Positions 293-21,650 of a DNA stretch of 49,705 nt are shown here, piece after piece. Origin of the DNA: Planctomycetota bacterium (GTDB lineage Bacteria; Planctomycetota; UBA1135; UBA2386); assembly GCA_051274975.1 (NCBI GenBank), contig JBNMND010000001.1:1-49705 (forward strand), in the 5' to 3' direction. The notes beneath the pieces are model-generated. The model did no database searches. It was not told the DNA's origin and was given only the letters and a program-made list of their open reading frames with translations. A program made the position numbers and the translations under genes. Every line of letters begins with the position of its first letter. Within the stretch, counting starts at the first letter, position 1.

Positions 293-829
293 TTAGTCCT
301 CGATGACCTCAACGTTTGCGCCGCCGATGCCTTGCAGGAACTGCACGGTCGCTTGGCTGTCGAACTTGGGGTCCGTCGCTTCGATCGACAGGAAGAACTT
401 GTCGTCGGTGACGCGATGGATGGTGCTGTGCGCGAAGATCGGGTGGTGCAAGCGCGGCAGTCGGTTGAGACCGAACATGCCGAACACTGCGCCGAGGCCG
501 GACAGCAGAATCATCAGCTCGAACGTGATCGGGATGGTCGACGGCCACGCGTAGGGCTGCTTGCCGGACACCCAGATCGGGTAGTCGTAGGCGTTCATCC
601 ACCACATCATCAGCTGCGCCAGGCAGATGCCCGTTAGACCGCAGCAGACCACGATCCAGCCGAGGCCGGATTCGGAGTGATTGAGCACCTTGTCGAGGCC
701 GTGCACCGGGAACGGCGTGTGCGCGTCGGTGCGCGTGTAGCCCTCGGCGGTGACCTTCTCACATGCGTGGTAGATCGATGCTGCGGAGTCAAACTCTGCC
801 ACGGCGCCCCACTTGTTGTTGGTAGTCAT
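293..829 (-). CDS. actD: Alternative complex III subunit ActD (DUF3341-type membrane protein)
   Basis: ORF 293..883. I place the start at ATG 829 (MTTNNKWGAVAEFDSAASIYHACEKV...), 10 nt after the actC stop and preceded by AAGGA. It has the typical ActD soluble N-domain plus two TM helices, and sits between actC and actE. Confidence 0.85.
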   Translation of the reverse strand: MTTNNKWGAVAEFDSAASIYHACEKVTAEGYTRTDAHTPFPVHGLDKVLNHSESGLGWIVVCCGLTGICLAQLMMWWMNAYDYPIWVSGKQPYAWPSTIPITFELMILLSGLGAVFGMFGLNRLPRLHHPIFAHSTIHRVTDDKFFLSIEATDPKFDSQATVQFLQGIGGANVEVIED

Positions 830-839
830 CAGTGGATCC

Positions 840-2279
<1,440 letters not shown>

Positions 2280-2284
2280 CGAAA

Positions 2285-5200
2285 TCAGGCCTTGGAGAGT
2301 TCGGGGTTCGGGTTGCGCACGCGACCCAGGTAGGTCGTGCGTGGCTTCGTATTCAGTTCGGAGAGCAACCCGTAGTTAAGGTCGCTACCGCGTAGCTTCG
2401 CGACCTTGCTATCGGTCTCGATGATGTTGCCGAAGGTGATCGCCTCGGTCGGGCAAGCTTGCGCGCAAGCTGTGGTGACCTTGATCATCTGTGGCCCGTC
2501 GCCAACCTTGGTTGCGTTGAGCTTCGCGTCGATGCGGCCACCGTTGATGCGTTGCACGCAGTAGGTGCACTTCTCCATCACGCCGCGGCTACGAACGGTG
2601 ACGTCCGGGTTGAACGCCATCTGCTTCGTATCAGGCACGTGCCCGATGTAGTCGAGGTAGTTGTAGCGGCGCACCTTGTAGGGGCAGTTGTTGCTGCAGT
2701 AGCGAGTGCCGATGCAGCGGTTGTAGACCATGTCGTTCAGTCCATCGGGACTGTGCGTGGTCGCAGCAACCGGGCAAACCGACTCACACGGCGCGTTCTC
2801 GCATTGCATGCAAGGCACCGGCATGTTCGAGACCTCAGGGTCATCGATCATCTTGAGGTTGTCGTCTTGGCGCGAGCTGAAGTAGCGGTCTGCACGGATC
2901 CAGAACATCTCGCGGTTACGCGCGACTTGGATCTTGCCGACCATCGGGATGTTGTTCTCGGCGACGCAAGCAGCGACGCAAGAACTGCAACCGGTGCAGG
3001 CGTTGAGGTCGAAGACCATTCCCCACTGGTAGTCCGAGCGACGAACGCGTTCGTCCTTACTCTCCTTGCCGTCGAGGTAGCCACGCTCTTCCCAGAGCGA
3101 CTTGTTGATGTCCTTCTCGACCTTGTCCTGCAAACGAGCAGCTTGGTCGAGCGGCGACATCTTCGGCGCCCACTTGGGGTCCTTCGCGTTGGTCGCCGCG
3201 TCGGTTTCGCGAATCAGTGCGCGACCGGCCATCGTGCCGTGCTCTTGCGTGCACACCAGCGAGTGACTGCCGGAGCCACGGCCGACGCTGGCGCCGGTCA
3301 GGATCCATTGGCTCGATGTGGTGCGCAATGGGTAGGCGTCGAAGCCCGACTTGTGCGCGACCTTGTAGTGCGAGTTCTCTTCTTCGTTGAATCGGCCCCA
3401 GCCCAGGAAGATCGAGATGCTGTCGTTGGCGTGACCGGGAAGGATCCAAGCCGGGATGTCGACCTGCTTGCCGCCGTTCGCGGTGATGGCGAGCATGTCG
3501 CCGTTCTCAACGTTGAGTTGCTTCGCCGTTGCCATGCTGAGCATGGCGGCGTTGTCCCAGCTGAGCTTGGTCAGCGGATCGGGAAGCTCGGCCATCCACG
3601 AGTTGTTGGCGTAGCGACCGTCACCCATCTTCGGGCAACCGCGCAGCACAACTTCGATACCTTCGCTCTTCTTGTAGGAGCTAACGCTTGCGGCGATCGC
3701 GCCGGCGTTGACCGATGCGGTCGCGGTGGCGAATGCCGTGCCAGCGACGACACCTTCGTGCAGCGCGGTCGGCCACCAGCCTTTTTCGAAGTCGGTCCCG
3801 CCGATGGTCGCTCGCCAGTGCTGCTTGACCAACTCGTAGCCGAAGACAGTGTCGCGGCTTTCCGCGAGCGTCTCGAAGCTTGCGCTGTCGGTCGTGTCCT
3901 GGTTGAGGAACGACAGGAACTCGAGTGCCGAGACGCCACCGTGCAACGGTGCGATCAGCGGTTGCTGCAGCGAGAGCGTGCCGTCATAGCTGAGCGCGTC
4001 GCCCCATGCTTCGAGGTCATGCGCCATCGGCAGGTGCCAATCGCAGTGGCGACCCGTCTCATCGTCGTAAAGACCGATGTGAATGGTCGTCGCCGGCTTC
4101 TTGTCGTGAAGCAGCTTTTTGAACTCGAGGTCAGCCGGAGCATCGAGCACCGGGTTGGTGCCGAGGAAGACCAGCGTCTCACAGGTGCCGGCTTGCATCG
4201 CCGCGGCGAGCTCTTGCAACTGCGCGGTGCAGTTGCTTGGCATGCCAGCTGGCGTGTCGGTCATCGTGACCGTCTTGCCAACGTTGCCGAGCTTCGCATT
4301 GATCGCGTGAACGATCGCGTGCACTGCGGGCGACTGAGTCGGGCCAGCGATGACGATGCTCTTGCCGGCGGCGGTCAGCAGGTCCTTGGCGATGATCTCA
4401 AGCCACTTCTTACCGCCCTTCTCGAACGTCGAAACGTCGTGTGAGGAGAGCGACGTCGCGAGGTCGCTGCCACCACCGACACCGAGTGCCTTGGCGAGGG
4501 CGAAGACTACGGCGGGGATGTCGCTGCTCTTGGTGCGGAAGCGGTGATCGGCTGCCGTGCCGGTCGTCGAGAAGATCGACTCGACGGAGTAGAGGCGGTT
4601 GAGGTTCTTGGCTTCGCGGCGACGTGAGGCCCACGCGCGAGCGTTGGCGAGGTTGTTGCCGTCGGTAGCGAGGAAGTCACTGTCGAGCGACAGCACGACG
4701 TCCGCCTTGGCGAAGTCGTAGTTGGTCGCCATCGACTTGCCGAACGCCATCTCCGCGCCTTGCAACTCGTTGTCGCGGTGCAGCGCCGTCCACGTGTGGA
4801 ACTTGGCCTTCGGGAAGCTGCCATCCTTAATGCGCTTAACTGCTGCTAGCAGGGAAGGCGACGTGCTCGGCGGCATGCAGATGTGCAAGCCGGCGCCTTG
4901 CTTGGCGAGCAAGTCGGACGAGGCGGTTTCTAGCCAGCTGGGCTTCGGGTGGTCGGAATCCAGGTCCGTGCCTATGCCGAGCTCTGCCCAGACGTCGACG
5001 GCATGGCCACCGTGAGCTGCGGCACCATGATCATCGTTGCTGTGCGCTGTGGTGTGCGCGTTGCGAGCGTGACGGCTGCGGTTGGGATCGTAGAGCTGCA
5101 GCAGTTCGGCCTGCAGTTGCAGGTCCGCGCCGCCGAGGCTGCTCGGGTGCATCGGGTTGCCTTCGATCTTGGTCGGGCGACCGTCGTTGCTCTTGACGAG

Positions 5201-5620
5201 AACGCCGATGCCGTAGCCGTTGCGATGGATCGTCGAGGCGTAGTGCTGTGCGATGCCAGGCTTGAAACCTTCCGGCCGCTTCGTGAACGGCAGGATCTTG
5301 GTTTCAGGCTTGCGGCAGCTGGTCATGCCAGCGAGCGCGACCGACGCGGCAATTGCGCCGAGGAAACCACGCCGCGAAACGTCGTCGGGAGCCTCGGTAA
5401 TGCCTTCGGGGAACTCGCGCGATAGCACCTCTTGGAACTCTTCCGAGTTCTCGAGTTGCCCGATACTGCGCCAGTAAGTCGGCTCTCCAGTTGTGGCCGT
5501 GGTAGCTGTGGCCTGGCTAGTTGTGGCCTGGCTAGCTGGGGCCTGGTTCCCGGGGGAAGTCTGGTTCATCGTCTGTTCAAGACCGGGGGTAAGCGGTCCC
5601 GTTTCGTGTGTACCTGTCAT
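2285..5620 (-). CDS. actB: Alternative complex III subunit ActB (Tat-exported molybdopterin-oxidoreductase-like domain fused to a 4Fe-4S ferredoxin-like domain)
   Basis: ORF 2285..5629. ATG 5620 overlaps the actA stop as ATGA, so I use it as the start. Twin-arginine signal [17 protein letters not shown]. Cys clusters [35 protein letters not shown] and ACAQACP. Confidence 0.9.
5493..5548. repeat. 15-nt in-frame tandem repeat (about 3.7 copies) in the 5' end of actB
   Basis: GTGGCC(G/T)(T/G)GG(T/C)TAG(C/T)T units lie at 5493-5507, 5508-5522 and 5523-5537, with a partial unit at 5538-5548. They encode the [15 protein letters not shown] low-complexity tract upstream of the Tat signal. Confidence 0.75.
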
Positions 5621-6291
5621 CGGTGGCACGCTGAGCAGTGGACTGGCGGGTTGAGGGCGGGCTCGTCACCGACGAGCAGCTGCTTGGCTGCTGCGATCGA
5701 CTCAGGCGTCGCTTCCCAATCCATCTTGGTGACGGACACGTCCAGCGGGCGAATGTGCTCGCTCGGGTCACGGTGGCACTCGAGGCACCAACCCATGCTG
5801 AGCGGCTCGACCTGACGGACGATTTCCATCTGGTCAACACGGCCGTGGCAGCTGGCGCAGCCAACGTTCGCGCGCATGTGCACCGCGTGGTTGAAGTAGG
5901 CGAAGTCGGGCAGCAAGTGCACCTTGACCCACTCGATTGGTTTATCGACTCGCACGCCATCGACTTCCGCGAAGGCCGACCGCAAGCCCTCGAGCTTGAC
6001 GCTGTCCTTCTTGATCACCTTGTGGCAGCCATAGCACGTTTCCGCATCGGGGATCGACGCGGTAGCGCCGTCTTCCACGTTGCGGTGGCAGTAACGGCAA
6101 TCCATACCCAACGTGCCCGCGTGCAGCTTGTGGCTGTACGCGATCGGCTGATAGGGCTGGTACCCGACGTCAGTGTGCTCCGGTGAGAACCAGAAAGAGA
6201 CGACGAGGACTACGAACAAGCCTGCGCTACCCGCACCAAGTGCGAGGAAGGCAGGAACTTTGTTGGTCCACTTGGGAAACAGTACGGTCAA
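5617..6291 (-). CDS. actA: Alternative complex III pentahaem cytochrome c subunit ActA
   Basis: Five CxxCH motifs (CRYCH, CYGCH, CASCH, CLECH, CSACH) and an N-terminal TM helix (AFLALGAGSAGLFVVLVVSFWF). The ORF is open up to GTG 6396. TTG 6291 is preceded by a GGAGGGGA Shine-Dalgarno-like stretch, so the start is uncertain by 35 codons. Confidence 0.85.
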   Translation of the reverse strand: MTVLFPKWTNKVPAFLALGAGSAGLFVVLVVSFWFSPEHTDVGYQPYQPIAYSHKLHAGTLGMDCRYCHRNVEDGATASIPDAETCYGCHKVIKKDSVKLEGLRSAFAEVDGVRVDKPIEWVKVHLLPDFAYFNHAVHMRANVGCASCHGRVDQMEIVRQVEPLSMGWCLECHRDPSEHIRPLDVSVTKMDWEATPESIAAAKQLLVGDEPALNPPVHCSACHR

Positions 6292-6581
6292 GGTAGATCC
6301 CCTCCGCGGTGGGGATGAATTGCGGTCGCAGGAAACTCGACGCGAATGCGCCGAAATTGAGCGCGCGTGTGGGCCGCCCTGAGTGGGTTTCCACACAACC
6401 TTGAATACCGGTTAGCTGTGTGGGACCTACTGCAGGGGCACGCGCAGTCAGCCCAGAGGGCAACTCATGTAAAAGATCGCCCCCATGGGGTCAATTTCAG
6501 AGTTACGAGATTCCCTCTTGAAGGCGGGTAAGACGCCGACCGTCAATGACCTGCACTAGATGTTGTGGTCTGGGGTCGCTA

Positions 6582-7736: not shown

Positions 7737-7842
7737 GTCGCTACAGTAGCTCGGACGTTGTTCTTTGGTCAGTGGGCATTTTCACGTGGTACCGTTGGTC
7801 GTATCCGGCAGCATGGTCCGCTCGGAAACCACGCCTCGCCTC

Positions 7843-9675
7843 ATGCCGACTCACATTCTAGGTATCTCCGCCTTCTACCACGACTCAGCCGCAGCTCTCC
7901 TGTGCGATGGCGAGATCGTTGCGGCTGCACAGGAAGAGCGCTTCACCAGGAAGAAGCACGATCCGGCGTATCCCAAGAAGGCCGTTGAGTTCTGTCTCGA
8001 TCAGGCCGGCATCAAGGCGCCGGACATCGACTTCGTCGCGTTCTATGACAAGCCGATCCTGAAGTTCCATCGGTTGATTGAGACCTACATGGCGTTCGCG
8101 CCGGTCGGTTTGAAGTCGTTCCGCAAGTCGATTCCGGTGTGGCTCGGCGAGAAGCTGCACATGCGGCGCAAGCTGACCAAGGAGCTCGGCTGCAAGCCGA
8201 AGAACCGCTACGTCTTCCCGGAGCATCACGAGAGTCACGCGGCCTCCGCGTTCTTCCCGTCGCCGTTTGAAGACGCGGCCATCATCACGATGGATGGTGT
8301 CGGTGAGTGGGCGACGACGTCGATCGGGGTAGGCGAAGGCAACAAGATGAAGCTGATCCGCGAGATCCGCTTCCCGCACTCGCTCGGCCTGCTCTACTCG
8401 GCGTTCACCTACTACTGCGGCTTCAAGGTTAACTCCGGCGAATACAAGCTGATGGGTTTGGCGCCGTATGGCGAGCCGCGGTTTGCGCAACTGATTCGCG
8501 ATCACTTGATCGACCTGCGCGAAGACGGCAGCTACCGCTTGGACCTGAGCTACTTCAACTACTGCCAGGGCCTGACGATGACGAACGCGAAGTTCGACGC
8601 CCTGTTTGGGGCGCCGCCGCGTGCTGGTGAGACCGATCTCGGCCAACGTCACATGGACCTCGCCGCGTCGATTCAGGAAGTGACCGAAGAGGTCATGCTG
8701 AAGACCGCGCGTTACGCGCAGAAGGTCACCGGCAAGAAGAACCTCTGCCTCGCTGGTGGTGTCGCGCTCAACTGCGTCGGCAATGGCGTAATCCTGCGCG
8801 AAGGACCGTTCGAGAAGCTTTGGATCCAACCCGCTGCCGGTGATGCCGGTGGTGCGCTCGGTGCCGCGCAGTTGGTTTGGCATAACTTGCTGAACAAGCC
8901 GCGCACGGTGCGATCCGCAGATTCGCAACGCGGCAGCTTGCTCGGCCCGCGCTACGAGTCGCAGGACATCAAGTCGGTGCTCGACGCCGAGAACGTTGTC
9001 TACGAAGAGTGCACCGACGAAGACACGCTCGCCGATCGCGTCGCTCAACTGATCAGCGATGAGAACGTCATTGGCTGGTTCCAAGGCCCGATGGAGTTCG
9101 GTCCGCGGGCGCTCGGTTCGCGCAGCATCATTGGTGATGCCCGTTCGCCGAAGATGCAGAGCGTGATGAACTTGAAGATCAAGTTCCGCGAATCATTCCG
9201 CCCGTTCGCACCGATCGTGCTCCGCGAACACGCGTCCGACTACTTCGAGATCGATCCCAAGCACGACAGCCCCTACATGCTGATCGTCGCACCCGTTCGC
9301 GATGACAAGCGCCTCAAGGTCGAACCTGGCCTCGAAGGCTTGGACAAGCTCAAGCAGTTGCGTTCGGTGATACCGGCCGTCACGCACGTCGACAACTCGG
9401 CGCGCCTGCAGACCGTCGACGGCGAGCACAATCCACGCCTCGCCGCGATGATGCGCAGCTTCCACAAGCTCACCGGCAGCCCGGTCTTGATCAACACGAG
9501 CTTCAACGTTCGCGGCGAGCCGATCGTCTGCACGCCACAAGACGCGCTGCGTTGTTTCATGGGCACGGACATGGACGTGCTTGTGCTCGAGAACTTCGTC
9601 ATCCGCCGCACGGCGCAGAAGAACATGCCTGAAGTCGACCGCGAGAAGTACCTCGCCGCCTTCGCCCTGGACTAA
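7843..9675 (+). CDS. Carbamoyltransferase (NodU/CmcH/SxtI family)
   Basis: ORF 7765..9675 begins at TTG. The conserved family N-terminus starts at ATG 7843 (MPTHILGISAFYHDSAAALL). The ASKHA-like N-domain and C-terminal carbamoyltransferase domain (NTSFNVRGEPIVCTP) are recognisable. Confidence 0.9.
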   Translation: MPTHILGISAFYHDSAAALLCDGEIVAAAQEERFTRKKHDPAYPKKAVEFCLDQAGIKAPDIDFVAFYDKPILKFHRLIETYMAFAPVGLKSFRKSIPVWLGEKLHMRRKLTKELGCKPKNRYVFPEHHESHAASAFFPSPFEDAAIITMDGVGEWATTSIGVGEGNKMKLIREIRFPHSLGLLYSAFTYYCGFKVNSGEYKLMGLAPYGEPRFAQLIRDHLIDLREDGSYRLDLSYFNYCQGLTMTNAKFDALFGAPPRAGETDLGQRHMDLAASIQEVTEEVMLKTARYAQKVTGKKNLCLAGGVALNCVGNGVILREGPFEKLWIQPAAGDAGGALGAAQLVWHNLLNKPRTVRSADSQRGSLLGPRYESQDIKSVLDAENVVYEECTDEDTLADRVAQLISDENVIGWFQGPMEFGPRALGSRSIIGDARSPKMQSVMNLKIKFRESFRPFAPIVLREHASDYFEIDPKHDSPYMLIVAPVRDDKRLKVEPGLEGLDKLKQLRSVIPAVTHVDNSARLQTVDGEHNPRLAAMMRSFHKLTGSPVLINTSFNVRGEPIVCTPQDALRCFMGTDMDVLVLENFVIRRTAQKNMPEVDREKYLAAFALD

Positions 9676-9680
9676 CAGCC

Positions 9681-10106
9681 ATGATCAAGCTCGACCTCAA
9701 TCCAGCCCCGCACATCATCAAGCAGTTCGCTTGGTTCGGTGTAATTGGCATGGGCCTACTCGGCTTCGCCGCGCTCAAGCTCACCGTTGGCTTCGCCTGG
9801 GAGCACCCCGTGTTCCTGACCGCGATCGGCATTGGTGTGGTGCAGCTGCTGCTGTTCCTCGCTGGCGTGTCGATTGTCTCGCGCGCGCTCTTCGTCGGCC
9901 TGTCGGTAGCGTTCGTACCAATCGGCTTCATCCTTTCGCACGTGCTGTTGGCCGTCGTCTACTACCTGGTGTTGACCCCGATCGCGTTGGTGTTCCGCTT
10001 GATCGGCCGCGATGTCATCGGCAAGAAGCTCGACAAGAGCGCGAAGAGCTACTGGCACGAGCGCAGTGGTGATCGGCCGGCGGCGAGCTACTTCAAACTC
10101 TACTAG
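9681..10106 (+). CDS. SxtJ-like small membrane protein
   Basis: 141 aa, 3-4 TM helices, 5 nt after the carbamoyltransferase stop. The C-terminal block YYLVLTPIALVFRLIGRDVIGKKLDKSAKSYWHER matches my memory of the SxtJ family signature. Confidence 0.7.
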   Translation: MIKLDLNPAPHIIKQFAWFGVIGMGLLGFAALKLTVGFAWEHPVFLTAIGIGVVQLLLFLAGVSIVSRALFVGLSVAFVPIGFILSHVLLAVVYYLVLTPIALVFRLIGRDVIGKKLDKSAKSYWHERSGDRPAASYFKLY

Positions 10107-12178: not shown

Positions 12179-13405
12179 ATGCGCTTTCAGACCGTGTTCG
12201 TTGCCGTGCTCATTGCCACGGCATTGCTGTGTTCGGCTCTGCTGATCAACTCAAGGCGGCCTGTCGACCAAACCCAGCGAGCGACTGCTACGCAGGTCAC
12301 GGCGACTGGCAAATGCGCGGCTTGTCATCGCGGCGAAGCCTCTGCGGTCGTGCACGAATACGAAATGAGCAAGCACGCTGTCGAAGGCGTGACGTGCTTG
12401 GACTGCCACCAGCCACAGGATGGGCAGCAGAGCATTTCGCACAATGGCTTCACGATTTCGACGGATCTGACTTCGAAGAATTGCGCGGCCTGCCACAGCC
12501 AGGAATACGAGCAGTTCTTGCGCAGTCGGCATGCAGCGCCGGCGATGGCTGCTGTGACTGGTATTGCTGGCTTCACGGCTGAGCAAATCGAGCACGCCGA
12601 GCGTTACCACCCAGGAATGGTGAAGCGAGCGGCGAACACGTTGGCGACGTTGGAGGGTGCGAGCGCCATGCAAGTCGGTTGCGTCAAGTGCCACGAGATT
12701 GGCGCCCCCAACCAAGATGGTTCGATCGGGAGTTGCACGGAATGCCATTCGCGCCACAACTCATCGGTCAGTCTCGCGAGGCGGCCAGAGACTTGTGGGC
12801 AATGCCACATGGGGCCCGATCACTCGCAGGTCGAGATCTACCACGAGTCGAAGCATGGCGTGCTGTTTAATGATCAGGTTGATCGCATGAACCTGCATGC
12901 TTCGCCGAAGTCGCTGACCACCGCGGACATGCCGGTGCCGACTTGTGCGACCTGCCACCTCAGTGGGCTCAACGGTCAGGGCGTGACGCATGACACCACG
13001 GAGCGACTGTCCTGGTTGCTGTATGCGCCGGTGTCCGAGAAGCGCAGTAACTATCAGCAAGGTCAAGACGCTATGCAGGCGACGTGCCGCGAGTGTCACA
13101 CGAGCAAGACGGTGACGGAGTTCTACGAAGAGGCCGAGGCGGTTGTTTTGGACGTCAACGGGAAGGTGAAGGAAGCTCTAGCACTCATCGCAGAGGCGCG
13201 CGCGGAAGGGCTATTGACGCCTGAGCCGTTTGATGAAGAGCTTGAGTTTCTCGAGTTCGATATCTGGCACTACTACGGCCGCACGGCGAAGCACGGCGCG
13301 TTCATGGGCGGCGCGGATTTCGTGCAGTGGCACGGCAACTACGAGCTGCTGCACTACAAGGTGAAGATCAAGAAGGCCATCGAGGAACTCCGTGCCAAGA
13401 AATAG
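12179..13405 (+). CDS. Membrane-anchored octahaem c-type cytochrome, hydroxylamine-oxidoreductase (HAO)-like multihaem family
   Basis: Eight CxxCH motifs (CAACH, CLDCH, CAACH, CVKCH, CTECH, CGQCH, CATCH, CRECH). N-terminal TM helix after ATG 12179 (the ORF track starts at TTG 12140). The blocks SCTECHSRH and CGQCHMGPDHSQVEIYHESKHG recall HAO/epsilon-Hao-type octahaem proteins. The family call is from memory and was not searched. Confidence 0.8.
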   Translation: MRFQTVFVAVLIATALLCSALLINSRRPVDQTQRATATQVTATGKCAACHRGEASAVVHEYEMSKHAVEGVTCLDCHQPQDGQQSISHNGFTISTDLTSKNCAACHSQEYEQFLRSRHAAPAMAAVTGIAGFTAEQIEHAERYHPGMVKRAANTLATLEGASAMQVGCVKCHEIGAPNQDGSIGSCTECHSRHNSSVSLARRPETCGQCHMGPDHSQVEIYHESKHGVLFNDQVDRMNLHASPKSLTTADMPVPTCATCHLSGLNGQGVTHDTTERLSWLLYAPVSEKRSNYQQGQDAMQATCRECHTSKTVTEFYEEAEAVVLDVNGKVKEALALIAEARAEGLLTPEPFDEELEFLEFDIWHYYGRTAKHGAFMGGADFVQWHGNYELLHYKVKIKKAIEELRAKK

Positions 13406-14222
13406 CCCGGCGTTGCGAAGGTGGGTCGTCCAGGCCTTCGTTACGGGCAACCTGGCGTTCCTCGCCGTGGACATTTGGTTCGCGCATTCGATGAATGCGT
13501 TTCACCACTGGGCGGAGTGGATTCCGTTTGGGTTCTCGCTGTTGGCGCCACTGCTGTTGCTGCCAGGCATCACTTCGGGTGACCCGTCGACAGCGCGTGG
13601 CAGGCGCTTGGGAATGCTCACCGGTGCTTGCAGTATTCTAGTCGGCATCGCGGGGCTGGTCTGGCACTTGCACGGCACGTTCTTCATCACGCAGACGCTG
13701 CACAACCTTGTCTACACGGCGCCGTTTGCCGCGCCGTTGTCCTACACGGGGCTGGGACTACTGCTGATCCTCAACCGTCTCGAGAGTCCGGGGGCAATCG
13801 CCTATGGCCAATGGGTGATGTTGATGGCTGCGGGCGGCTTCGCGGGCAACTTCGCGCTCACCTTGGCAGACCATGCTCAGAATGGGTTCTTCCACACGTC
13901 GGAATGGATCGCGGTTGCTGCCGCTGCAGTCGGCGTCTCGTTCTTGCTGGTCAATTGCCGCGCGCGCTGTAGCCGATTCGATCTGCTCGTGTGCGCATGG
14001 GTCATGGCATTGCAGGTGTTGGTCGGGCTCCTTGGCGCCGGACTTCACATCGGTGCGATCCTCAAGGGACCAAGCAGCTCAATGCTCGACAACGCGATCC
14101 ACACCGCACCACTGTTTGCCCCGATGCTGTTTGCGGACCTGGCGATTCTCGGTGCGCTCGGTCTGTGGTGCCGCTGGTCTTTGCTCGATGCGGAACCGCA
14201 GATGGCGAGTCGCGTCGCTTAG
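13392..14222 (+). CDS. 8-TM integral membrane protein with internal 4+4 duplication and conserved histidines (unknown family)
   Basis: GTG 13392 overlaps the cytochrome gene by 14 nt. There are eight hydrophobic helices. The two halves align: AHSMNAFHHWAEWI with DHAQNGFFHTSEWI, and WHLHG..LHNLVYTAPFAAPL with GLHIG..LDNAIHTAPLFAPM. Confidence 0.7.
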   Translation: MPRNSPALRRWVVQAFVTGNLAFLAVDIWFAHSMNAFHHWAEWIPFGFSLLAPLLLLPGITSGDPSTARGRRLGMLTGACSILVGIAGLVWHLHGTFFITQTLHNLVYTAPFAAPLSYTGLGLLLILNRLESPGAIAYGQWVMLMAAGGFAGNFALTLADHAQNGFFHTSEWIAVAAAAVGVSFLLVNCRARCSRFDLLVCAWVMALQVLVGLLGAGLHIGAILKGPSSSMLDNAIHTAPLFAPMLFADLAILGALGLWCRWSLLDAEPQMASRVA

Positions 14223-14477: not shown

Positions 14478-14696
14478 ATGACCGAACAAGCAACCGACGA
14501 GCAGAACGAAACCAACGACGACTTCCTGAACGCAGCTCAGGAACAAGAGCGTGGGCTGGTCTCGGAGTTTGTCATGTTCATGGCCGAGAACAAGATGTGG
14601 TGGCTTACGCCGATCTTGGTCGTGTTTGGCTTGCTCGGTGTGCTGCTAGTGCTCGGAGCGACCGGCGTCGCACCGTTCATCTACACGCTGTTCTAA
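14478..14696 (+). CDS. DUF5989 / SxtK-like small membrane protein, copy 1
   Basis: ORF 14409..14696. ATG 14478 is preceded by AGGAA. 72 aa with an acidic N-tail, one TM helix and the family-typical C-terminus GATGVAPFIYTLF. Confidence 0.75.
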   Translation: MTEQATDEQNETNDDFLNAAQEQERGLVSEFVMFMAENKMWWLTPILVVFGLLGVLLVLGATGVAPFIYTLF

Positions 14697-14929
14697 TGAG
14701 CGAGCGCGACACCAACGGGCGCGAAATCAGCGAACGCGACGGTGCCAAAGAGTTCGCCGCTGCTGGCCAAGCTAAAGAACGTGGCCTGGTTGGCGAGTTG
14801 GTGTCGTTTATGGCTGAGACTCGCAGCTGGTGGATGTTGCCGCTGCTGATCGTATTCGGTTTGCTTGGAGTGATCCTTGTGCTCGGTGCCACGGGCGTCG
14901 CACCGTTCCTCTACCCGTTGTTCGGTTAG
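14696..14929 (+). CDS. DUF5989 / SxtK-like small membrane protein, copy 2
   Basis: Within ORF 14597..14929. ATG 14696 overlaps the copy-1 stop (TAATG). 77 aa ending GATGVAPFLYPLFG. A clear paralogue of copy 1. Confidence 0.7.
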   Translation: MSERDTNGREISERDGAKEFAAAGQAKERGLVGELVSFMAETRSWWMLPLLIVFGLLGVILVLGATGVAPFLYPLFG

Positions 14930-14938
14930 CGATCGCTA

Positions 14939-14967
14939 GAGCTGCACGCATTCGATTGCGTGCGCTC
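14939..14967 (+). terminator. Hairpin downstream of the second DUF5989 gene (terminator-like, no U-tract)
   Basis: GCACGCA-TTCGAT-TGCGTGC is a perfect 7-bp stem, extendable with one bulge (GAGCT.../...GCTC). It starts 10 nt after the TAG at 14927-14929 and lies upstream of the sigma-factor gene. Confidence 0.3.
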
Positions 14968-15067
14968 GCCCCTCGCTGGTCTCGGAACGCGACGTCCTCG
15001 TCGTCCACTGCGCGGAAAACCCGCAGTCGCGTCGATATCAGGTGCACACACCACGAGGAGGAATGCC

Positions 15068-15922
15068 ATGCGAGATCACGGTCTCGATACATACCTGGCC
15101 GACATCAACGAAGTTGCGTTGTTGGCGCCAGAACAGGAAATTGAGTTGTCGAAGCGCATCCAGGTCGGCGACTTGGAAGCGCGCGAACACATGATCAGGG
15201 CCAATCTGCGCCTGGTTGTTTCGATTGCTAAGAACTACGTCAACCGCGGCTTGTCGTTCATGGACCTCATCGAAGAGGGGAACATCGGGCTGATGAAGGC
15301 GGTCGAGAAGTTTGACCACAACGCTGGTTGCCGCTTCTCCACCTATGCGACTTGGTGGATCAAGCAAGGCATTCGCCGGTCCTTGGTCAACACGGTGAAG
15401 ACCGTGCGAGTCCCGTCCTACATGTCGGAGATCGTGTCGCGCTGGAAGGCGACTGCGATGGAGCTCAATTACCGATTGGGGCGGCAAGCGACGACGGGTG
15501 AGATCGCGGAAGAGCTCGACTTGCCCGAGAACAACTGGGATGTCGTGCGTGACACCGTGCAGGCGAACTCGCAGCCGATGCACTCGGTTAACGATGATGC
15601 GGGCGCTGCGTTCGCCGATGTGATTGAGGACACGCGCACCCGTTCGCCGGAGGACCAGATCCTCGAAGCGATGGAGATAGGCCGCATGCACGAGTTGATT
15701 GAGAGGCTCGACACGCGTGAGGCTCGGATCCTCAGACTGCGGTTCGGACTCGGCAACGGTGAACCGATGACGCTCAAAGCCATCGGCAAGCGTTTCGGCC
15801 TGACTCGCGAGCGCGTTCGCCAGATGGAACAGCAAGCACTCGAGAAGCTGGGTGAAGTGATGTCGCGCGAGTTCGGCGAAGAGCGCCCACCATCGCGGGT
15901 CAAACGCAAGAACGCGACCTAG
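15068..15922 (+). CDS. RNA polymerase sigma-70 family factor (RpoD/RpoS-like, regions 1.2-4)
   Basis: ORF 14960..15922. ATG 15068 is preceded by GAGGAGGA. Region 2 reads [18 protein letters not shown]...[15 protein letters not shown]. Region 4 HTH reads [27 protein letters not shown]. Confidence 0.9.
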
Positions 15923-15987
15923 CGTCGAGATGCCGTGGGCCTACCTGTCGGGCTCATAGCCCCGATGTCTGCTTGCCGGAAGTTGGC

Positions 15988-16055
15988 GTACTGTACCGGG
16001 TTCAATCCACCAGATCGGCCATGGCGGAAGTGGTGGTTTGAACCGGGTACAGTAC
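15988..16055. repeat. 68-nt imperfect palindrome between the sigma-factor gene and hemW
   Basis: Pairing outward from the centre (16021/16022) gives 29 of 34 complementary positions. The arms are GTACTGTACCGGGTTCAATCCACCA and TGGTGGTTTGAACCGGGTACAGTAC, around a GCCATGGC core. It starts 66 nt after the sigma stop and ends 24 nt before the hemW GTG. Confidence 0.8.
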
Positions 16056-16078
16056 ACAAACCGGGGTAGGTTGGGGCT

Positions 16079-17251
16079 GTGGCGAATGATGAGCAGCTTG
16101 CAGTTGGCACCGGCACTTCGCTGTATGTGCATGTCCCGTTCTGCGTGGTGAAGTGCGGCTACTGCGACTTCAACTCCTACGTGGTTGAAGAGGGTGCGGC
16201 GCACGATCGCTTCCTCGATGCCTTGGAAGCGGAGATCGCGCGGCGGTGGCATGGCCAGCGACCGGTGTCGGTGTTCTTTGGCGGTGGCACGCCGAGCTTG
16301 CTGTCGCCGCCGCGGCTGCAGCGTTTGTTCGAGATCATCGGGGCCCAGGTGGACCTTGCCGGTTGCGGTGAGGTTTCGATGGAAGCGAACCCCGAGAGCT
16401 TCACAGTTGAGAAGGCGCAGATTGCACGAGCGGGCGGCGTCAACCGGATCAGCATCGGCACGCAGACGTTCCACGCCCATCACTTGCGATTCCTCGATCG
16501 GGCGCATGATGCAGAAGGTGCGGAGGCGGCGTTCGCGGCGGCGCGGGAGGCGGGCTTCGACAACGTCAGCATCGATCTGATGTTTGGCATTCCTGGCGAG
16601 ACGCTCGCCGAATGGCAGAGCGACCTCGAACGCGCGCTGCAACTCGGGACCGACCACCTGTCTTGCTACAACCTGACGTTCGAACCTGGCACGCGGCTGC
16701 AGCGCGATCGGCTGCAGGGAAAGACTGGGCCGAACGATCAGGAGATCGATCGCGCGATGTTCGAGTGGACGCGGCAGCGGCTAGGCGAAGCGGGGTTTGA
16801 TGCCTACGAGGTGAGTAACTTCGCTGGCGGCGGTGGTCCGTGCCTACACAACGATCACTATTGGCTGCAGGGCAACTACGTCGGTGTTGGACCGGGCGCT
16901 TGCAGTCATCACGATGGCATTCGCGTGACCAACATCAAGCCGCTCGATGCTTGGGTGGATGCGGCGTTGGCGGGCCTGACGTGCACGTCTTCTGCTGAGA
17001 CCTTGCGGCCGATGCAGCGCGCTGCCGAAGCTTTGTGGCTTGGCATTCGACGAACGAAGGGCGTCAACCTGGCGGCCACCGAGAAGCGCTTGGGTCTCGA
17101 CATGCGCGCTATGTTTGAACCGTTGGTCGCGCGGCAGCAGCGCGAGCAGATGGTCGAATACGACGGCTCGATGTTGCGTTTGGTTGGCGAGGGTTTGTTG
17201 CTCGCCGACCAGGTCGGAGGCGACTATCTAGGAGCCGCCGTCAACGATTGA
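16079..17251 (+). CDS. hemW: Radical SAM haem chaperone HemW (HemN-like, coproporphyrinogen oxidase-related)
   Basis: 390 aa. LYVHVPFCVVKCGYCDFNS (CxxxCxxC radical SAM motif) and a HemN-like C-terminal domain. GTG start. Confidence 0.85.
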   Translation: MANDEQLAVGTGTSLYVHVPFCVVKCGYCDFNSYVVEEGAAHDRFLDALEAEIARRWHGQRPVSVFFGGGTPSLLSPPRLQRLFEIIGAQVDLAGCGEVSMEANPESFTVEKAQIARAGGVNRISIGTQTFHAHHLRFLDRAHDAEGAEAAFAAAREAGFDNVSIDLMFGIPGETLAEWQSDLERALQLGTDHLSCYNLTFEPGTRLQRDRLQGKTGPNDQEIDRAMFEWTRQRLGEAGFDAYEVSNFAGGGGPCLHNDHYWLQGNYVGVGPGACSHHDGIRVTNIKPLDAWVDAALAGLTCTSSAETLRPMQRAAEALWLGIRRTKGVNLAATEKRLGLDMRAMFEPLVARQQREQMVEYDGSMLRLVGEGLLLADQVGGDYLGAAVND

Positions 17252-20751: not shown

Positions 20752-21369
20752 TCAGTTGTGTCGGGTCCGCCGTTTTGGTTGCGGCGTGAAGCGAGCCCAG
20801 GACTCCATACGTTGGTTCGGGCGCAAACTGAGATACGGAGTCCAGCGAGGTCGCATGGGTTGGCGAAGAAGTTGCAGCCCAGCTTCCTTGGGCGTGTGGT
20901 TTGCTTTGCGCGCATTGCAGCGCACGCAGGCGAGAACGCAGTTCTCCCAGGAAGTCGAACCACCGCGCGATCGGGGTTGCACGTGGTCGACGCTGAGTCG
21001 ATCCGGCGGGCCGCGCTTGGCGCAATACTGGCACGTGTAGTCGTCGCGCAAGAACAGATTACGCCGCGTGAACGGTGCTTCGTGGCACGGCACGCGGTTG
21101 TAGTTCGTCAGCAGGATGATTTCGGGCGCCGCGATGTGGATCCTTGGTGACCGGATTGTGTGCTCTGGATTGGTGATTGGCACGTCGATCCAGCTGCCAA
21201 AACTGTGGGTCGTCAGCGATTCTGGGCAGACAATTCTAGCCGCATCGCGGAATACCATGCAGAGCGCTCGCCGCACGGTGGTCACGTGCACCGGCCGCCA
21301 AGAGCGATTCAACACCAGGGTTGCTCGCTGCAGCAGGTCGGCCCGCCGAACTGTTTCCGAGGCACGCAT
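20752..21369 (-). CDS. HNH endonuclease family protein
   Basis: ORF 20752..21594. The family-like N-terminus starts at ATG 21369 (MRASETVRRADLLQRATLVLNRSWRP). HNH motif DHVQPRSRGGSTSWENCVLACVRCNARK. Confidence 0.8.
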   Translation of the reverse strand: MRASETVRRADLLQRATLVLNRSWRPVHVTTVRRALCMVFRDAARIVCPESLTTHSFGSWIDVPITNPEHTIRSPRIHIAAPEIILLTNYNRVPCHEAPFTRRNLFLRDDYTCQYCAKRGPPDRLSVDHVQPRSRGGSTSWENCVLACVRCNARKANHTPKEAGLQLLRQPMRPRWTPYLSLRPNQRMESWARFTPQPKRRTRHN

Positions 21370-21650
21370 GGGTGATTCCAGCCACCAAACGAACTGCCAG
21401 GCCGGGGGAACGGAGTGTATGTCGAGTTGCCGGGTCGTGAAACCCTCGTGCCTCGGCGGTATCGTGTCGACTTGGTCGATTCCCGACGAGCCAGGTGTTC
21501 GTCGGCGTTGCCTGCCTCGGCGGGCGTCGATACACTGTTCGGCCCTCCAAACGACGAAAACTACCAACACGCCTTGAAAACTGTGGCCCTGCAACCAGAT
21601 GAGGTTGCGGTGTTGCGTTCACGCGTGACCCACCTCAAGAGGGGCTCCCA

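What the first reader, a model, noticed from the sequence alone, without database searches (positions are those of the whole stretch)
12179..14222. HAO-like octahaem cytochrome c coupled to an unrecognised internally duplicated 8-TM His-rich membrane protein
Seen: a 408-aa protein has an N-terminal membrane anchor and exactly eight CxxCH motifs. It is followed by a 276-aa gene with a 14-nt overlap. That second protein has eight TM helices arranged as two homologous 4-TM halves. Each half conserves xH-x2-N-x-F-x-H-x2-EWI and H-x-G...L-x-N-x3-TAP-x2-AP. Established: octahaem HAO-family proteins include oxidative hydroxylamine/hydrazine enzymes and reductive epsilon-Hao-type nitrite/hydroxylamine reductases. 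Their usual membrane partners are cytochrome cM552/NapC/NrfH-type tetrahaems or HaoB, not a protein like this one. Inference: the conserved His pairs in a pseudo-symmetric 4+4 bundle could ligate b-haems or form a quinone site. That would make this a two-gene quinol-linked N-oxide (or other small-molecule) redox module with a novel anchor. It sits in an organism that also carries ACIII and shows no anammox-type context in this window.
Basis: partly seen in the sequence, partly recalled or inferred. Interest (0 to 1): 0.65.

Follow-up and report, generated by a model that had tools for sequence, protein, structure and literature searches.

The report
Tyr-less HAO octahaem with novel 8-TM partner
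A membrane-anchored eight-haem enzyme of the hydroxylamine-oxidoreductase family, of the type expected to reduce nitrite or hydroxylamine, is always encoded next to an undescribed eight-helix membrane protein that probably links it to the quinone pool, and this gene pair is widespread and transcribed in the sea.

Summary
The 408-aa ORF has an N-terminal helix and eight CxxCH motifs. It overlaps by 14 nt a 276-aa ORF with eight TM helices built from two homologous 4-TM halves.

The cytochrome belongs to the HAO family. It keeps the distal Asp-His pair, lacks the cross-linking tyrosine and carries the epsilon-Hao M-x7-W signature, so it is a reductive-type enzyme.

The 8-TM protein matches no Pfam or NCBIfam model and no PDB fold, although its AlphaFold model is confident (pLDDT 92).

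The pairing held in every locus that could be judged. All 78 judgeable genome loci baited with the membrane protein have the cytochrome directly upstream. All 75 judgeable metagenome loci baited with the cytochrome have the membrane gene directly downstream. A branch only 27% identical keeps the arrangement. No third gene is conserved, and no NapC/NrfH partner is present.

Four His and D160 are conserved in all 16 sequences of the deepest alignment, and they lie on the periplasmic face. A Marinimicrobia ortholog is co-transcribed in eight marine metatranscriptomes.

Best reading (inferred, not shown): the partner is a new quinol-oxidising electron-input subunit for an N-oxide reductase. I found no description of it in the searchable literature.

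The parts
12179..13405 (+). haoA-like gene: 408-aa HAO-family octahaem cytochrome c of the tyrosine-less (epsilon-Hao-like) type
   Evidence: PF13447 E 1.2e-26. PDB sequence matches: IhOCC 4qo5 E 9.6e-47 and HAO 1fgj 1.1e-28 with the family profile. The Foldseek top 5 are all HAO-family structures, probability 1.0.
12179..12259 (+). N-terminal hydrophobic helix (aa 1-27) of the cytochrome, probably a retained membrane anchor
   Evidence: Hydropathy segment aa 1-27 and AF2 helix 3-25. F3, F7, R27 and P28 are 98-100% conserved in 154 sequences from many phyla, which is unlike a cleaved signal peptide.
12314..13100 (+). Span holding the eight CxxCH haem c motifs (aa 46, 73, 102, 168, 186, 206, 256, 303)
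   Evidence: Counted. All eight are invariant in the family alignment.
12818..12823 (+). D214-H215, the distal Asp-His pair of the HAO active site (motif CHMGPDH)
   Evidence: Aligned to the VDH of N. europaea HAO and the GPDH of Kuenenia kustc0458. Invariant in the family.
13304..13330 (+). M376-x7-W384 segment at the place of the cross-linking tyrosine of oxidative HAO/HDH
   Evidence: Chained alignments window<->kustc0458 and kustc0458<->HDH put HDH Tyr462 opposite Q383, with W384 next to it. Tyr462 is the cross-link residue (PMC6469936). M376, Q383 and W384 are 100% conserved. The Trp-for-Tyr and Met-8-before signature of epsilon-Hao is described in PMC8940962.
13392..13405 (+). 14-nt overlap of the two genes (GTG start of the membrane gene inside the end of the cytochrome gene)
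   Evidence: In the related loci the distance from the end of the cytochrome reading frame to the start of the alignment to the membrane protein is -45 to about +200 nt.
13392..14222 (+). Gene for a 276-aa, 8-TM membrane protein of an undescribed family, the obligate partner of the cytochrome
   Evidence: No Pfam or NCBIfam hit. AF2 pLDDT 92.1 with 8 TM helices. No PDB fold match (best E 0.31). More than 2100 homologs, all named hypothetical apart from one generic glycosyltransferase label. Co-occurrence.
13392..13796 (+). First 4-TM repeat (aa 1-135) with D27, H32, N35, E42, H92, Y108, P111, P115
   Evidence: hhalign of the two halves, probability 98.3%. Conservation of at least 97% in 143 sequences.
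13797..14219 (+). Second 4-TM repeat (aa 136-276) with D160, H161, N164, E171, W172, H219, P240, P244
13485..13487 (+). H32 codon (periplasmic end of TM1), invariant
13665..13667 (+). H92 codon (periplasmic end of TM3), invariant
13872..13874 (+). H161 codon (periplasmic end of TM5), invariant, preceded by invariant D160
14046..14048 (+). H219 codon (periplasmic end of TM7), invariant

Best explanation
This is a self-contained two-gene respiratory or detoxifying module.

Gene 1 encodes a periplasm-facing HAO-family octahaem cytochrome c, held in the membrane by its own conserved N-terminal helix. It is of the tyrosine-less, epsilon-Hao-like kind. Its five-coordinate haem 4 with the distal Asp-His pair is expected to reduce nitrite, hydroxylamine and/or NO rather than oxidise hydroxylamine.

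Gene 2 overlaps gene 1 and encodes an 8-TM protein made of two homologous four-helix bundles. All of its conserved polar residues lie at the periplasmic membrane surface, directly under the place where the cytochrome must sit. These are four invariant His, two Asp, Tyr and Trp, plus Asn and Glu in most members.

I infer that the partner docks the cytochrome, oxidises quinol at this periplasmic-face site and hands the electrons to haem 1, which lies only about 18 residues beyond the anchor helix. It may do this with or without a His-ligated cofactor. It would then play the role that the NapC/NrfH-type tetrahaem HaoC plays for epsilon-Hao and that NrfH plays for NrfA.

Shown: family membership of the cytochrome, absence of the cross-link Tyr, the duplication and topology of the partner, the pairing in every judgeable locus, co-inheritance, and co-transcription in an ortholog.

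Inferred: physical complex, quinol oxidation, substrate and product.
For: Cytochrome:
- Eight CxxCH motifs and PF13447.
- Best solved relatives are IhOCC, HAO, kustc0458 and HDH, by sequence and by fold.
- D214-H215 is aligned to the catalytic Asp-His pair and is invariant.
- Q383/W384 stand in place of HDH Tyr462.
- The M-x7-W epsilon-Hao signature is present (PMC8940962).

Partner:
- Duplication with E 1.2e-14.
- Confident 8-TM model.
- K/R residues fall only in the N-terminus, loops 2-3, 4-5 and 6-7, and the C-terminus, read directly from the sequence. By the positive-inside rule this puts H32, H92, H161, H219, D27, D160, N35, N164, E42, E171, Y108 and W172 on the periplasmic side.

Coupling:
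- 78 of 78 judgeable genome loci from about 13 named lineages have the cytochrome directly upstream on the same strand.
- 75 of 75 judgeable metagenome loci found with the cytochrome have the 8-TM gene directly downstream.
- A branch only 27% identical keeps the arrangement.
- No other conserved neighbour and no NapC/NrfH gene.
- Pairwise identities of the two proteins correlate with r 0.66, against a permutation maximum of 0.05.
- The anchor helix of the cytochrome has invariant residues.

Expression:
- Metatranscriptome contigs cross the gene junction of the Marinimicrobia ortholog in 8 of 8 runs. One contig (L026 3706-5879) covers exactly the two genes.

Known biology (my own knowledge of Haase et al. 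2017, whose text I could not read here): epsilon-Hao proteins reduce nitrite and hydroxylamine in vitro and are thought to receive electrons from a quinol-oxidising HaoC.
Against: - No direct evidence exists for a complex, a cofactor or quinol oxidation.
- The four His lie at one membrane level and at helix ends. This differs from the classic stacked di-haem b anchors, and acidic neighbours (D27, D160, E42, E171) are unusual around haem propionates.
- The fold has no match among solved quinol dehydrogenases. There is no sequence similarity to NrfD-type ActC or to any Pfam family.
- Many carriers also have ACIII or other complexes that could donate electrons to a periplasmic cytochrome, as was proposed for Caldithrix epsilon-Hao (PMC5317091).
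- The substrate is unknown. The active-site motif CHMGPDH is identical to the NO-forming kustc0458, while the C-terminal signature is that of ammonifying epsilon-Hao.
Confidence: 0.55

Rival explanations
1. The 8-TM protein is not a redox subunit. It is a dedicated assembly, maturation or stabilising factor for this membrane-anchored octahaem, for example a haem-handling or docking scaffold. Electrons would come from another complex such as ACIII, a Rieske/cytochrome b complex or a soluble cytochrome.
For: - The pairing and co-inheritance fit a chaperone or scaffold equally well.
- Periplasmic-face His residues are also typical of haem-handling proteins (CcmF/CcsA type; my own knowledge).
- ACIII is present in the window.
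- Electron supply to epsilon-Hao through ACIII or Rieske/cytochrome b has been proposed for Caldithrix (PMC5317091).
- Nitrifier haoA is likewise followed by a membrane protein, HaoB, of unknown role (my own knowledge).
Against: - All eight haem motifs are standard CxxCH, so no special lyase is needed.
- There is no similarity to PF01578 or any haem-handling family.
- ACIII or other donors are not conserved next to the pair.
- The pair is the only conserved unit in very different genomes.
- The mRNA level of the partner is comparable to that of the enzyme in metatranscriptomes.
Confidence: 0.2
2. The 8-TM protein carries its own catalytic or transport site at the periplasmic face: a mono- or dinuclear metal centre built from the four His and the Asp/Glu residues, or a channel for substrate, product or protons. 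The pair would then perform a two-step conversion or a reaction other than simple nitrite or hydroxylamine reduction.
For: - The conserved set of 4 His, 2 Asp and 2 Glu, together with Tyr and Asn, at one level in a pseudo-symmetric bundle resembles metal sites more than haem pockets.
- Membrane metal sites of the Asp/His type are known next to hydroxylamine chemistry (PmoC/AmoC; my own knowledge).
- The fold is new.
Against: - E42 and N35 are not invariant in distant members.
- There is no similarity to any known membrane metalloenzyme or transporter.
- There is no positive evidence for metal binding.
Confidence: 0.12
3. The module runs in the oxidative direction. The cytochrome oxidises hydroxylamine or another reduced small molecule and the partner passes the electrons into the quinone pool. 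This would be a compact version of the nitrifier hydroxylamine:ubiquinone redox module, used for detoxification or heterotrophic nitrification.
For: - Annotation pipelines call the protein hydroxylamine dehydrogenase.
- Many carriers are aerobic or facultative heterotrophs with ACIII.
- The Asp-His pair is shared with oxidative HAO.
Against: - The cross-linking tyrosine that defines oxidative HAO/HDH is absent.
- Tyrosine-less relatives (epsilon-Hao, kustc0458) have negligible oxidase activity (PMC8042395).
Confidence: 0.1

Closest known systems
epsilon-Hao / HaoCA of Campylobacterota (Haase et al. 2017; Nautilia, Campylobacter, Caminibacter)
   Same: An HAO-family octahaem without the cross-linking Tyr, with Trp at or next to that position and Met eight residues before it. 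It is expected to be a nitrite and hydroxylamine reductase tied to the membrane quinol pool.
   Different: The known partner is HaoC, a NapC/NrfH-type tetrahaem cytochrome c encoded upstream. Here no such gene exists. The partner is a non-cytochrome-c 8-TM protein encoded downstream, and the enzyme carries its own conserved anchor helix. I could not place the window clade against Campylobacterota sequences in a tree.
IhOCC of Ignicoccus hospitalis (PDB 4qo5)
   Same: It is the best solved relative by sequence (E 9.6e-47 with the profile). It is an HAO fold without the Tyr cross-link, and is described as an octahaem nitrite reductase in PMC9250108.
   Different: IhOCC is 521 aa against 408 aa here. 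It has Asp-Val instead of Asp-His at the distal pair (alignment). Whether it has an 8-TM neighbour was not testable here.
Kuenenia stuttgartiensis HAOr (kustc0458/0457, PDB 6h5l)
   Same: It is the top fold match. The active-site motif CHMGPDH is identical, and there is no Tyr. It is a reductive enzyme that forms NO from nitrite.
   Different: It is a soluble complex with the dihaem kustc0457 inside the anammoxosome, with no membrane anchor and no 8-TM partner.
Nitrifier HAO module (HaoA-HaoB-c554-cM552)
   Same: It has the same enzyme fold and Asp-His pair, and a membrane-protein gene directly downstream of haoA.
   Different: Nitrifier HaoA has the Tyr cross-link (P460) and works oxidatively. 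As far as I recall, HaoB is not an 8-TM duplicated protein. Electrons leave through c554 and cM552.
NrfD/PsrC-type and CtaA/Cox15-type membrane proteins (architectural analogues only)
   Same: They have eight TM helices arranged as two four-helix bundles, with functional residues near the outer face. In PsrC this is a quinol site. In CtaA the residues are His pairs that bind haem.
   Different: There is no sequence similarity (Pfam; hhalign against ActC, probability 0.1%) and no Foldseek match in the 50 best PDB rows shown. The conserved His residues sit on TM1, 3, 5 and 7, not on TM2, 4, 6 and 8 as in CtaA.

Membership tests
HAO family of octahaem cytochromes c (PF13447) | Eight CxxCH motifs and significant sequence similarity to HAO-family proteins | tested here: met
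   Eight motifs. PF13447 at 94 bits against a cut-off of 21.9. PDB hits to IhOCC, HAO, kustc0458, kustc1061 and HDH.
HAO family of octahaem cytochromes c (PF13447) | HAO-type fold | tested here: met
   The Foldseek top 5 are 6h5l, 4qo5, 6hif, 1fgj and 4n4n, probability 1.0 and TM about 0.5. The next matches (NrfA) have E > 0.3. The model is only moderate, with pLDDT 71.
HAO family of octahaem cytochromes c (PF13447) | Distal Asp-His pair after the sixth haem motif | tested here: met
   D214-H215 aligns with the VDH of NeHAO and the GPDH of kustc0458 and is invariant.
HAO family of octahaem cytochromes c (PF13447) | Five-coordinate catalytic haem 4 and a trimeric assembly | not testable with these tools
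   This needs spectroscopy or a structure with haems.
Oxidative HAO/HDH/HOX (P460 enzymes) | Tyrosine that cross-links to haem 4 of the neighbouring subunit | tested here: not met
   HDH Tyr462 (PMC6469936) aligns through kustc0458 with Q383, and W384 is adjacent. Both are invariant non-Tyr residues. A direct HMM alignment to NeHAO Tyr467 could not be obtained.
epsilon-Hao subfamily (HaoCA) | Trp in place of the cross-link Tyr, with Met eight residues before it | tested here: met
   M376 and W384 are 100% conserved. The criterion is as reported in PMC8940962, which cites Haase 2017. My chained alignment places the Tyr position one residue earlier (Q383), within alignment uncertainty.
epsilon-Hao subfamily (HaoCA) | haoC (NapC/NrfH tetrahaem) adjacent as the electron donor | tested here: not met
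   There is no such gene beside the pair in the window and none conserved in 80 loci.
epsilon-Hao subfamily (HaoCA) | Nitrite and hydroxylamine reduction to ammonium | not testable with these tools
   This needs an enzyme assay.
NrfD/PsrC quinol dehydrogenase family (PF03916), for the 8-TM protein | Match to the family profile or fold | tested here: not met
   No Pfam hit, even at E <= 10 in 120 members. hhalign against the window's ActC gives probability 0.1%. No NrfD-type structure appears among the 50 best Foldseek rows shown.
CtaA/Cox15 haem A synthase (PF02628), for the 8-TM protein | Match to the family profile or fold; His pairs on TM2/4 and TM6/8 | tested here: not met
   No Pfam hit and no Foldseek hit among the rows shown. 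The conserved His residues are on TM1, 3, 5 and 7.
Membrane b-type cytochrome anchors (NarI, FdnI, CybB and similar), for the 8-TM protein | Profile match; bis-His pairs positioned to hold haem b | tested here: inconclusive
   No profile match. Four invariant His, one on each of two non-adjacent helices per bundle, would allow two bis-His haems, but all lie at one level at helix ends. The geometry could not be measured because no coordinates were returned.

The most novel reading that the evidence does not exclude
The 8-TM protein founds a new class of membrane quinol dehydrogenase, or more generally of electron-input subunit. It would use a pseudo-symmetric, periplasmic-face four-His site that holds haem b, a metal or a quinone. 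Together with its octahaem it would form the main non-Campylobacterota version of the epsilon-Hao system.

If so, a large share of the 'hao' genes reported from soils, sediments, sea ice and oxygen-minimum zones encode a compact quinol-dependent nitrite, hydroxylamine or NO reductase, not a nitrification enzyme.
Probability: 0.45. Interest if true: 0.75.

Novelty: new variant of a known kind. Interest (0 to 1): 0.68.

Why it matters
Metagenomic surveys often report genes annotated 'hydroxylamine dehydrogenase' (hao) in organisms that are neither nitrifiers nor anammox bacteria, and what they do is debated (PMC8940962, PMC11266412, PMC10732223). This clade is one such hao.

Its reach:
- At least 390 of 185,579 species genomes carry the partner gene. 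The 80 loci fetched come from Planctomycetota, Marinimicrobia, Acidobacteriota, Gemmatimonadota, Myxococcota, Verrucomicrobiota and other lineages.
- Thousands of metagenomic relatives exist.
- It is transcribed in marine metatranscriptomes.

For epsilon-Hao enzymes outside Campylobacterota the electron donor has been guessed to be ACIII, a Rieske/cytochrome b complex or NapM. A conserved two-gene unit with a novel membrane partner gives a concrete, testable answer.

If the partner proves to be a quinol dehydrogenase, it adds a new type of module beside NapC/NrfH, NrfD and cytochrome b anchors. It would also improve the reading of nitrogen-cycle gene inventories, in particular whether nitrogen is retained as ammonium or lost as NO and N2O. 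Cultured carriers exist, so the question is experimentally accessible.

Tried and rejected
- Pfam and NCBIfam scans of the 8-TM protein found nothing. A Pfam scan of all 120 homologs at E <= 10 gave only scattered noise (Ceramidase and DUF6069 in 10 of 120).
- Foldseek of the confident 8-TM model against the PDB gave a best E of 0.31 and TM below 0.45, mostly GPCRs and ABC transporters. I treated this as no match.
- NrfD-likeness was rejected. CtaA-likeness was rejected.
- A profile search of 1.84 billion representatives found a compact family only (951 hits). The longer hits were a GNAT fusion and a probable frameshift chimera, neither informative.
- A search for a conserved third gene found none.
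- Direct alignment of the C-terminus to N. europaea HAO Tyr467 failed, because the HMM alignments stop at residue 349. I solved this indirectly through kustc0458 and HDH.
- No RNA runs were found for the window or for isolate ZRK32.
- FNR/CRP-like boxes upstream of haoA occur in 21 of 134 loci against about 8 in shuffles. No NsrR-like boxes were found. This is too weak to build on.
- A promoter and terminator scan of the window operon found nothing above chance.
- Eight literature searches and ten papers read found no description of the membrane partner.
- A chance ORF or chance adjacency was rejected, given protein-level conservation down to 26% identity and the co-occurrence in every judgeable locus.
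Full report
**What is there**

The window (about 61% G+C) carries two overlapping genes on the plus strand.
- Gene 1 (12179-13405) encodes 408 aa. It has one N-terminal hydrophobic helix (aa 1-27) and exactly eight CxxCH motifs, at aa 46, 73, 102, 168, 186, 206, 256 and 303.
- Gene 2 (13392-14222, GTG start) encodes 276 aa and overlaps gene 1 by 14 nt.
- Gene callers on four public contigs that hold the same sequence call the same two products.
- Those contigs and the sequencing runs that hold the stretch come from ice metagenomes, and NCBI labels the protein as from a Planctomycetota MAG.

**The cytochrome**

It is a clear member of the HAO family.
- It matches Pfam PF13447 (E 1.2e-26).
- Its best solved relatives by sequence are the Ignicoccus octahaem IhOCC (4qo5), N. 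europaea HAO, Kuenenia kustc0458, kustc1061 and hydrazine dehydrogenase.
- An AlphaFold2 model of moderate quality (pLDDT 71) finds only HAO-family structures at Foldseek probability 1.0. These are 6h5l, 4qo5, 6hif, 1fgj and 4n4n. NrfA comes far behind.
- The distal Asp-His pair of the HAO active site is present as D214-H215. The motif CHMGPDH is identical to that of the NO-forming kustc0458 and is invariant in the family.

The tyrosine that cross-links haem 4 in oxidative HAO and HDH is absent.
- I chained the alignment of the window family to kustc0458 with that of kustc0458 to HDH.
- HDH Tyr462, the cross-link residue according to PMC6469936, falls opposite Q383, with W384 next to it. Both are 100% conserved.
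- M376 lies eight residues before W384. PMC8940962, citing Haase et al. 2017, describes exactly this as the epsilon-Hao signature: Trp in place of the Tyr and Met eight residues earlier.

So the enzyme is of the reductive type. Annotation pipelines name it variously 'hydroxylamine dehydrogenase', 'multiheme c-type cytochrome' or 'ammonia-forming cytochrome c nitrite reductase c552'.

**The membrane protein**

Hydropathy and a confident AlphaFold2 model (pLDDT 92.1, pTM 0.90) give eight TM helices. The two halves are homologous. BLASTP gives E 4e-07, and hhalign of the half-profiles gives probability 98.3% and E 1.2e-14.

The protein belongs to no recognised family.
- It matches no Pfam or NCBIfam model.
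- None of 120 homologs shows a recurrent weak Pfam hit.
- It has no similarity to the NrfD-family ActC encoded in the same window.
- It has no Foldseek match in the PDB (best E 0.31).
- It has more than 2100 homologs in the large protein database. All that carry a name are 'hypothetical', apart from one generic glycosyltransferase label.
- A profile search of 1.84 billion representatives finds a compact family of 951.

Conservation was measured at two depths.
- In 143 sequences, the positions at least 97% conserved include N20, D27, H32, N35, E42, H92, Y108, P111, P115, R129, D160, H161, N164, E171, W172, H219, P240 and P244.
- In members down to 26% identity, the invariant residues are still H32, H92, H161, H219, D160, Y108, W172 and four prolines.

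The four His lie at the C-terminal ends of TM1, 3, 5 and 7. Lys and Arg cluster in the N-terminus, loops 2-3, 4-5 and 6-7, and the C-terminus, as read from the sequence. The positive-inside rule therefore places both termini in the cytoplasm. All the conserved polar residues then sit on the periplasmic face, where the cytochrome must be.

**The pairing**

- With the membrane protein as bait, 390 relatives were found in one-genome-per-species bacterial and archaeal genomes. The 80 best come from Planctomycetota, Marinimicrobia, Acidobacteriota, Gemmatimonadota, Zixibacteria, Myxococcota, Verrucomicrobiota, Bacteroidota, Nitrospirales, Hydrogenedentota and others.
- In 78 of these 80 loci an ortholog of the window cytochrome (52-80% identity, eight CxxCH) lies directly upstream on the same strand. 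In the other two the contig ends there.
- With the cytochrome as bait in metagenome contigs, all 75 loci with any room downstream carry the 8-TM gene directly after it. No locus lacks it.
- A divergent branch of the membrane family (27% identity) is again preceded by a 414-415-aa octahaem with the same motifs.
- No other gene is conserved around the pair, and no NapC/NrfH-type gene is present.
- Pairwise identities of the two proteins across 132 loci correlate with r 0.66, against a permutation maximum of 0.05. The pair is therefore inherited as a unit.
- The cytochrome is the more conserved of the two (mean 61% against 48% identity).
- The cytochrome's N-terminal helix has invariant residues (F3, F7, R27, P28). 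This is unlike a cleaved signal peptide and suggests a retained helix that contacts the partner.

**Expression**

No RNA data exist for the window organism. The Marinimicrobia ortholog (locus L026) is present in many marine metatranscriptomes.
- In all eight runs examined, contigs cross the junction of the two genes.
- One contig (3706-5879) covers exactly the two genes (3730-5792).
- In several runs the pair is deeper than its flanks.
- Contig depth is only a rough measure, and DNA carry-over cannot be excluded. The agreement of contig ends with operon ends nevertheless supports a bicistronic transcript.

**Interpretation**

Shown:
- a tyrosine-less HAO-family octahaem with its own anchor;
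- an undescribed duplicated 8-TM partner with a conserved periplasmic-face His/Asp/Tyr/Trp cluster;
- pairing in every judgeable locus, co-inheritance and co-transcription.

Inferred:
- The partner takes the place of HaoC or NrfH as the quinol-oxidising electron-input subunit.
- The enzyme reduces nitrite, hydroxylamine and/or NO.

What the His cluster actually is remains open. It could be two bis-His haems side by side, a metal site or a cofactor-less quinol pocket. No coordinates were returned, so distances could not be measured. The single-level position of the His residues and their acidic neighbours argue against a classical stacked di-haem b anchor.

Rivals are a non-redox assembly or scaffold role, an own catalytic or channel function, and oxidative operation. 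The missing Tyr speaks against the last one.

**Comparison and novelty**

The enzyme works like, and carries the signature of, epsilon-Hao. It fails the HaoC criterion of the HaoCA system. It is not an oxidative HAO. The partner is not a member of the NrfD, CtaA or any Pfam-covered family.

Eight full-text searches and ten papers on hao-like genes in non-nitrifiers, epsilon-Hao, IhOCC and anammox HAO paralogs contain no mention of this partner. Subscription literature could not be searched.

I rate the finding a new variant of a known kind: a known enzyme family joined to a new membrane module.

**Limits**

- The loci examined are the best 80 of each scan plus one distant branch, so clades further out may behave differently.
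- The relation to Campylobacterota epsilon-Hao and the gene neighbourhood of IhOCC were not testable.
- Function is untested.

Noticed in passing
window 293-6396 (-): An alternative complex III operon: ActD (293-883), NrfD-type ActC (840-2279), FeS-containing ActB (2285-5629) and multihaem ActA (5617-6396). It lies about 6 kb from the hao pair and is not conserved next to the pair in other genomes.
   Followed up: partly
window 7765-10106 and 14478-14929: A NodU-type carbamoyltransferase and a 141-aa membrane ORF lie upstream. Two tandem DUF5989 genes lie downstream. Between them sit the hao pair and a 563-aa CarboxypepD_reg-like gene. As far as I recall, these flanking genes are often adjacent elsewhere, so the pair may have been inserted here.
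   Followed up: no
window 14960-17251 (+): An RpoD/RpoS-like sigma-70 factor (14960-15922) and a HemW-type radical-SAM haem chaperone (16079-17251; TIGR00539, 275 bits against a cut-off of 205) lie directly downstream of the pair. They are not conserved near the pair in other loci.
   Followed up: partly
window 20752-21594 (-): A stand-alone HNH endonuclease gene.
   Followed up: no
L015, L023, L047, L068 (cytochrome region about 3500-5000): The cytochrome gene is split or frameshifted in four MAG contigs, several of them very long and possibly from long-read assemblies. These are either assembly indels or pseudogenes. The 8-TM gene is intact beside them.
   Followed up: no
250 nt upstream of haoA in L001-L166 (e.g. 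L104 -149 and -109, L072 -157, L018 -89): FNR/CRP-like boxes TTGAT-N4-ATCAA (up to 2 mismatches) occur in 21 of 134 loci against about 8 in shuffles. No NsrR-like boxes were found. This may hint at oxygen- or NO-responsive control in some lineages.
   Followed up: partly
P0242 (454 aa) and P0386 (413 aa), from the representative search: One family member is fused to a C-terminal GNAT acetyltransferase domain. Another looks like a chimera of a cytochrome fragment and an 8-TM fragment, probably from a frameshift.
   Followed up: partly
L026 5310-5400: In several metatranscriptomes the contigs break, or their depth drops, inside the 8-TM gene at about 5310-5390. This could be an assembly effect or a processing site.
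   Followed up: no
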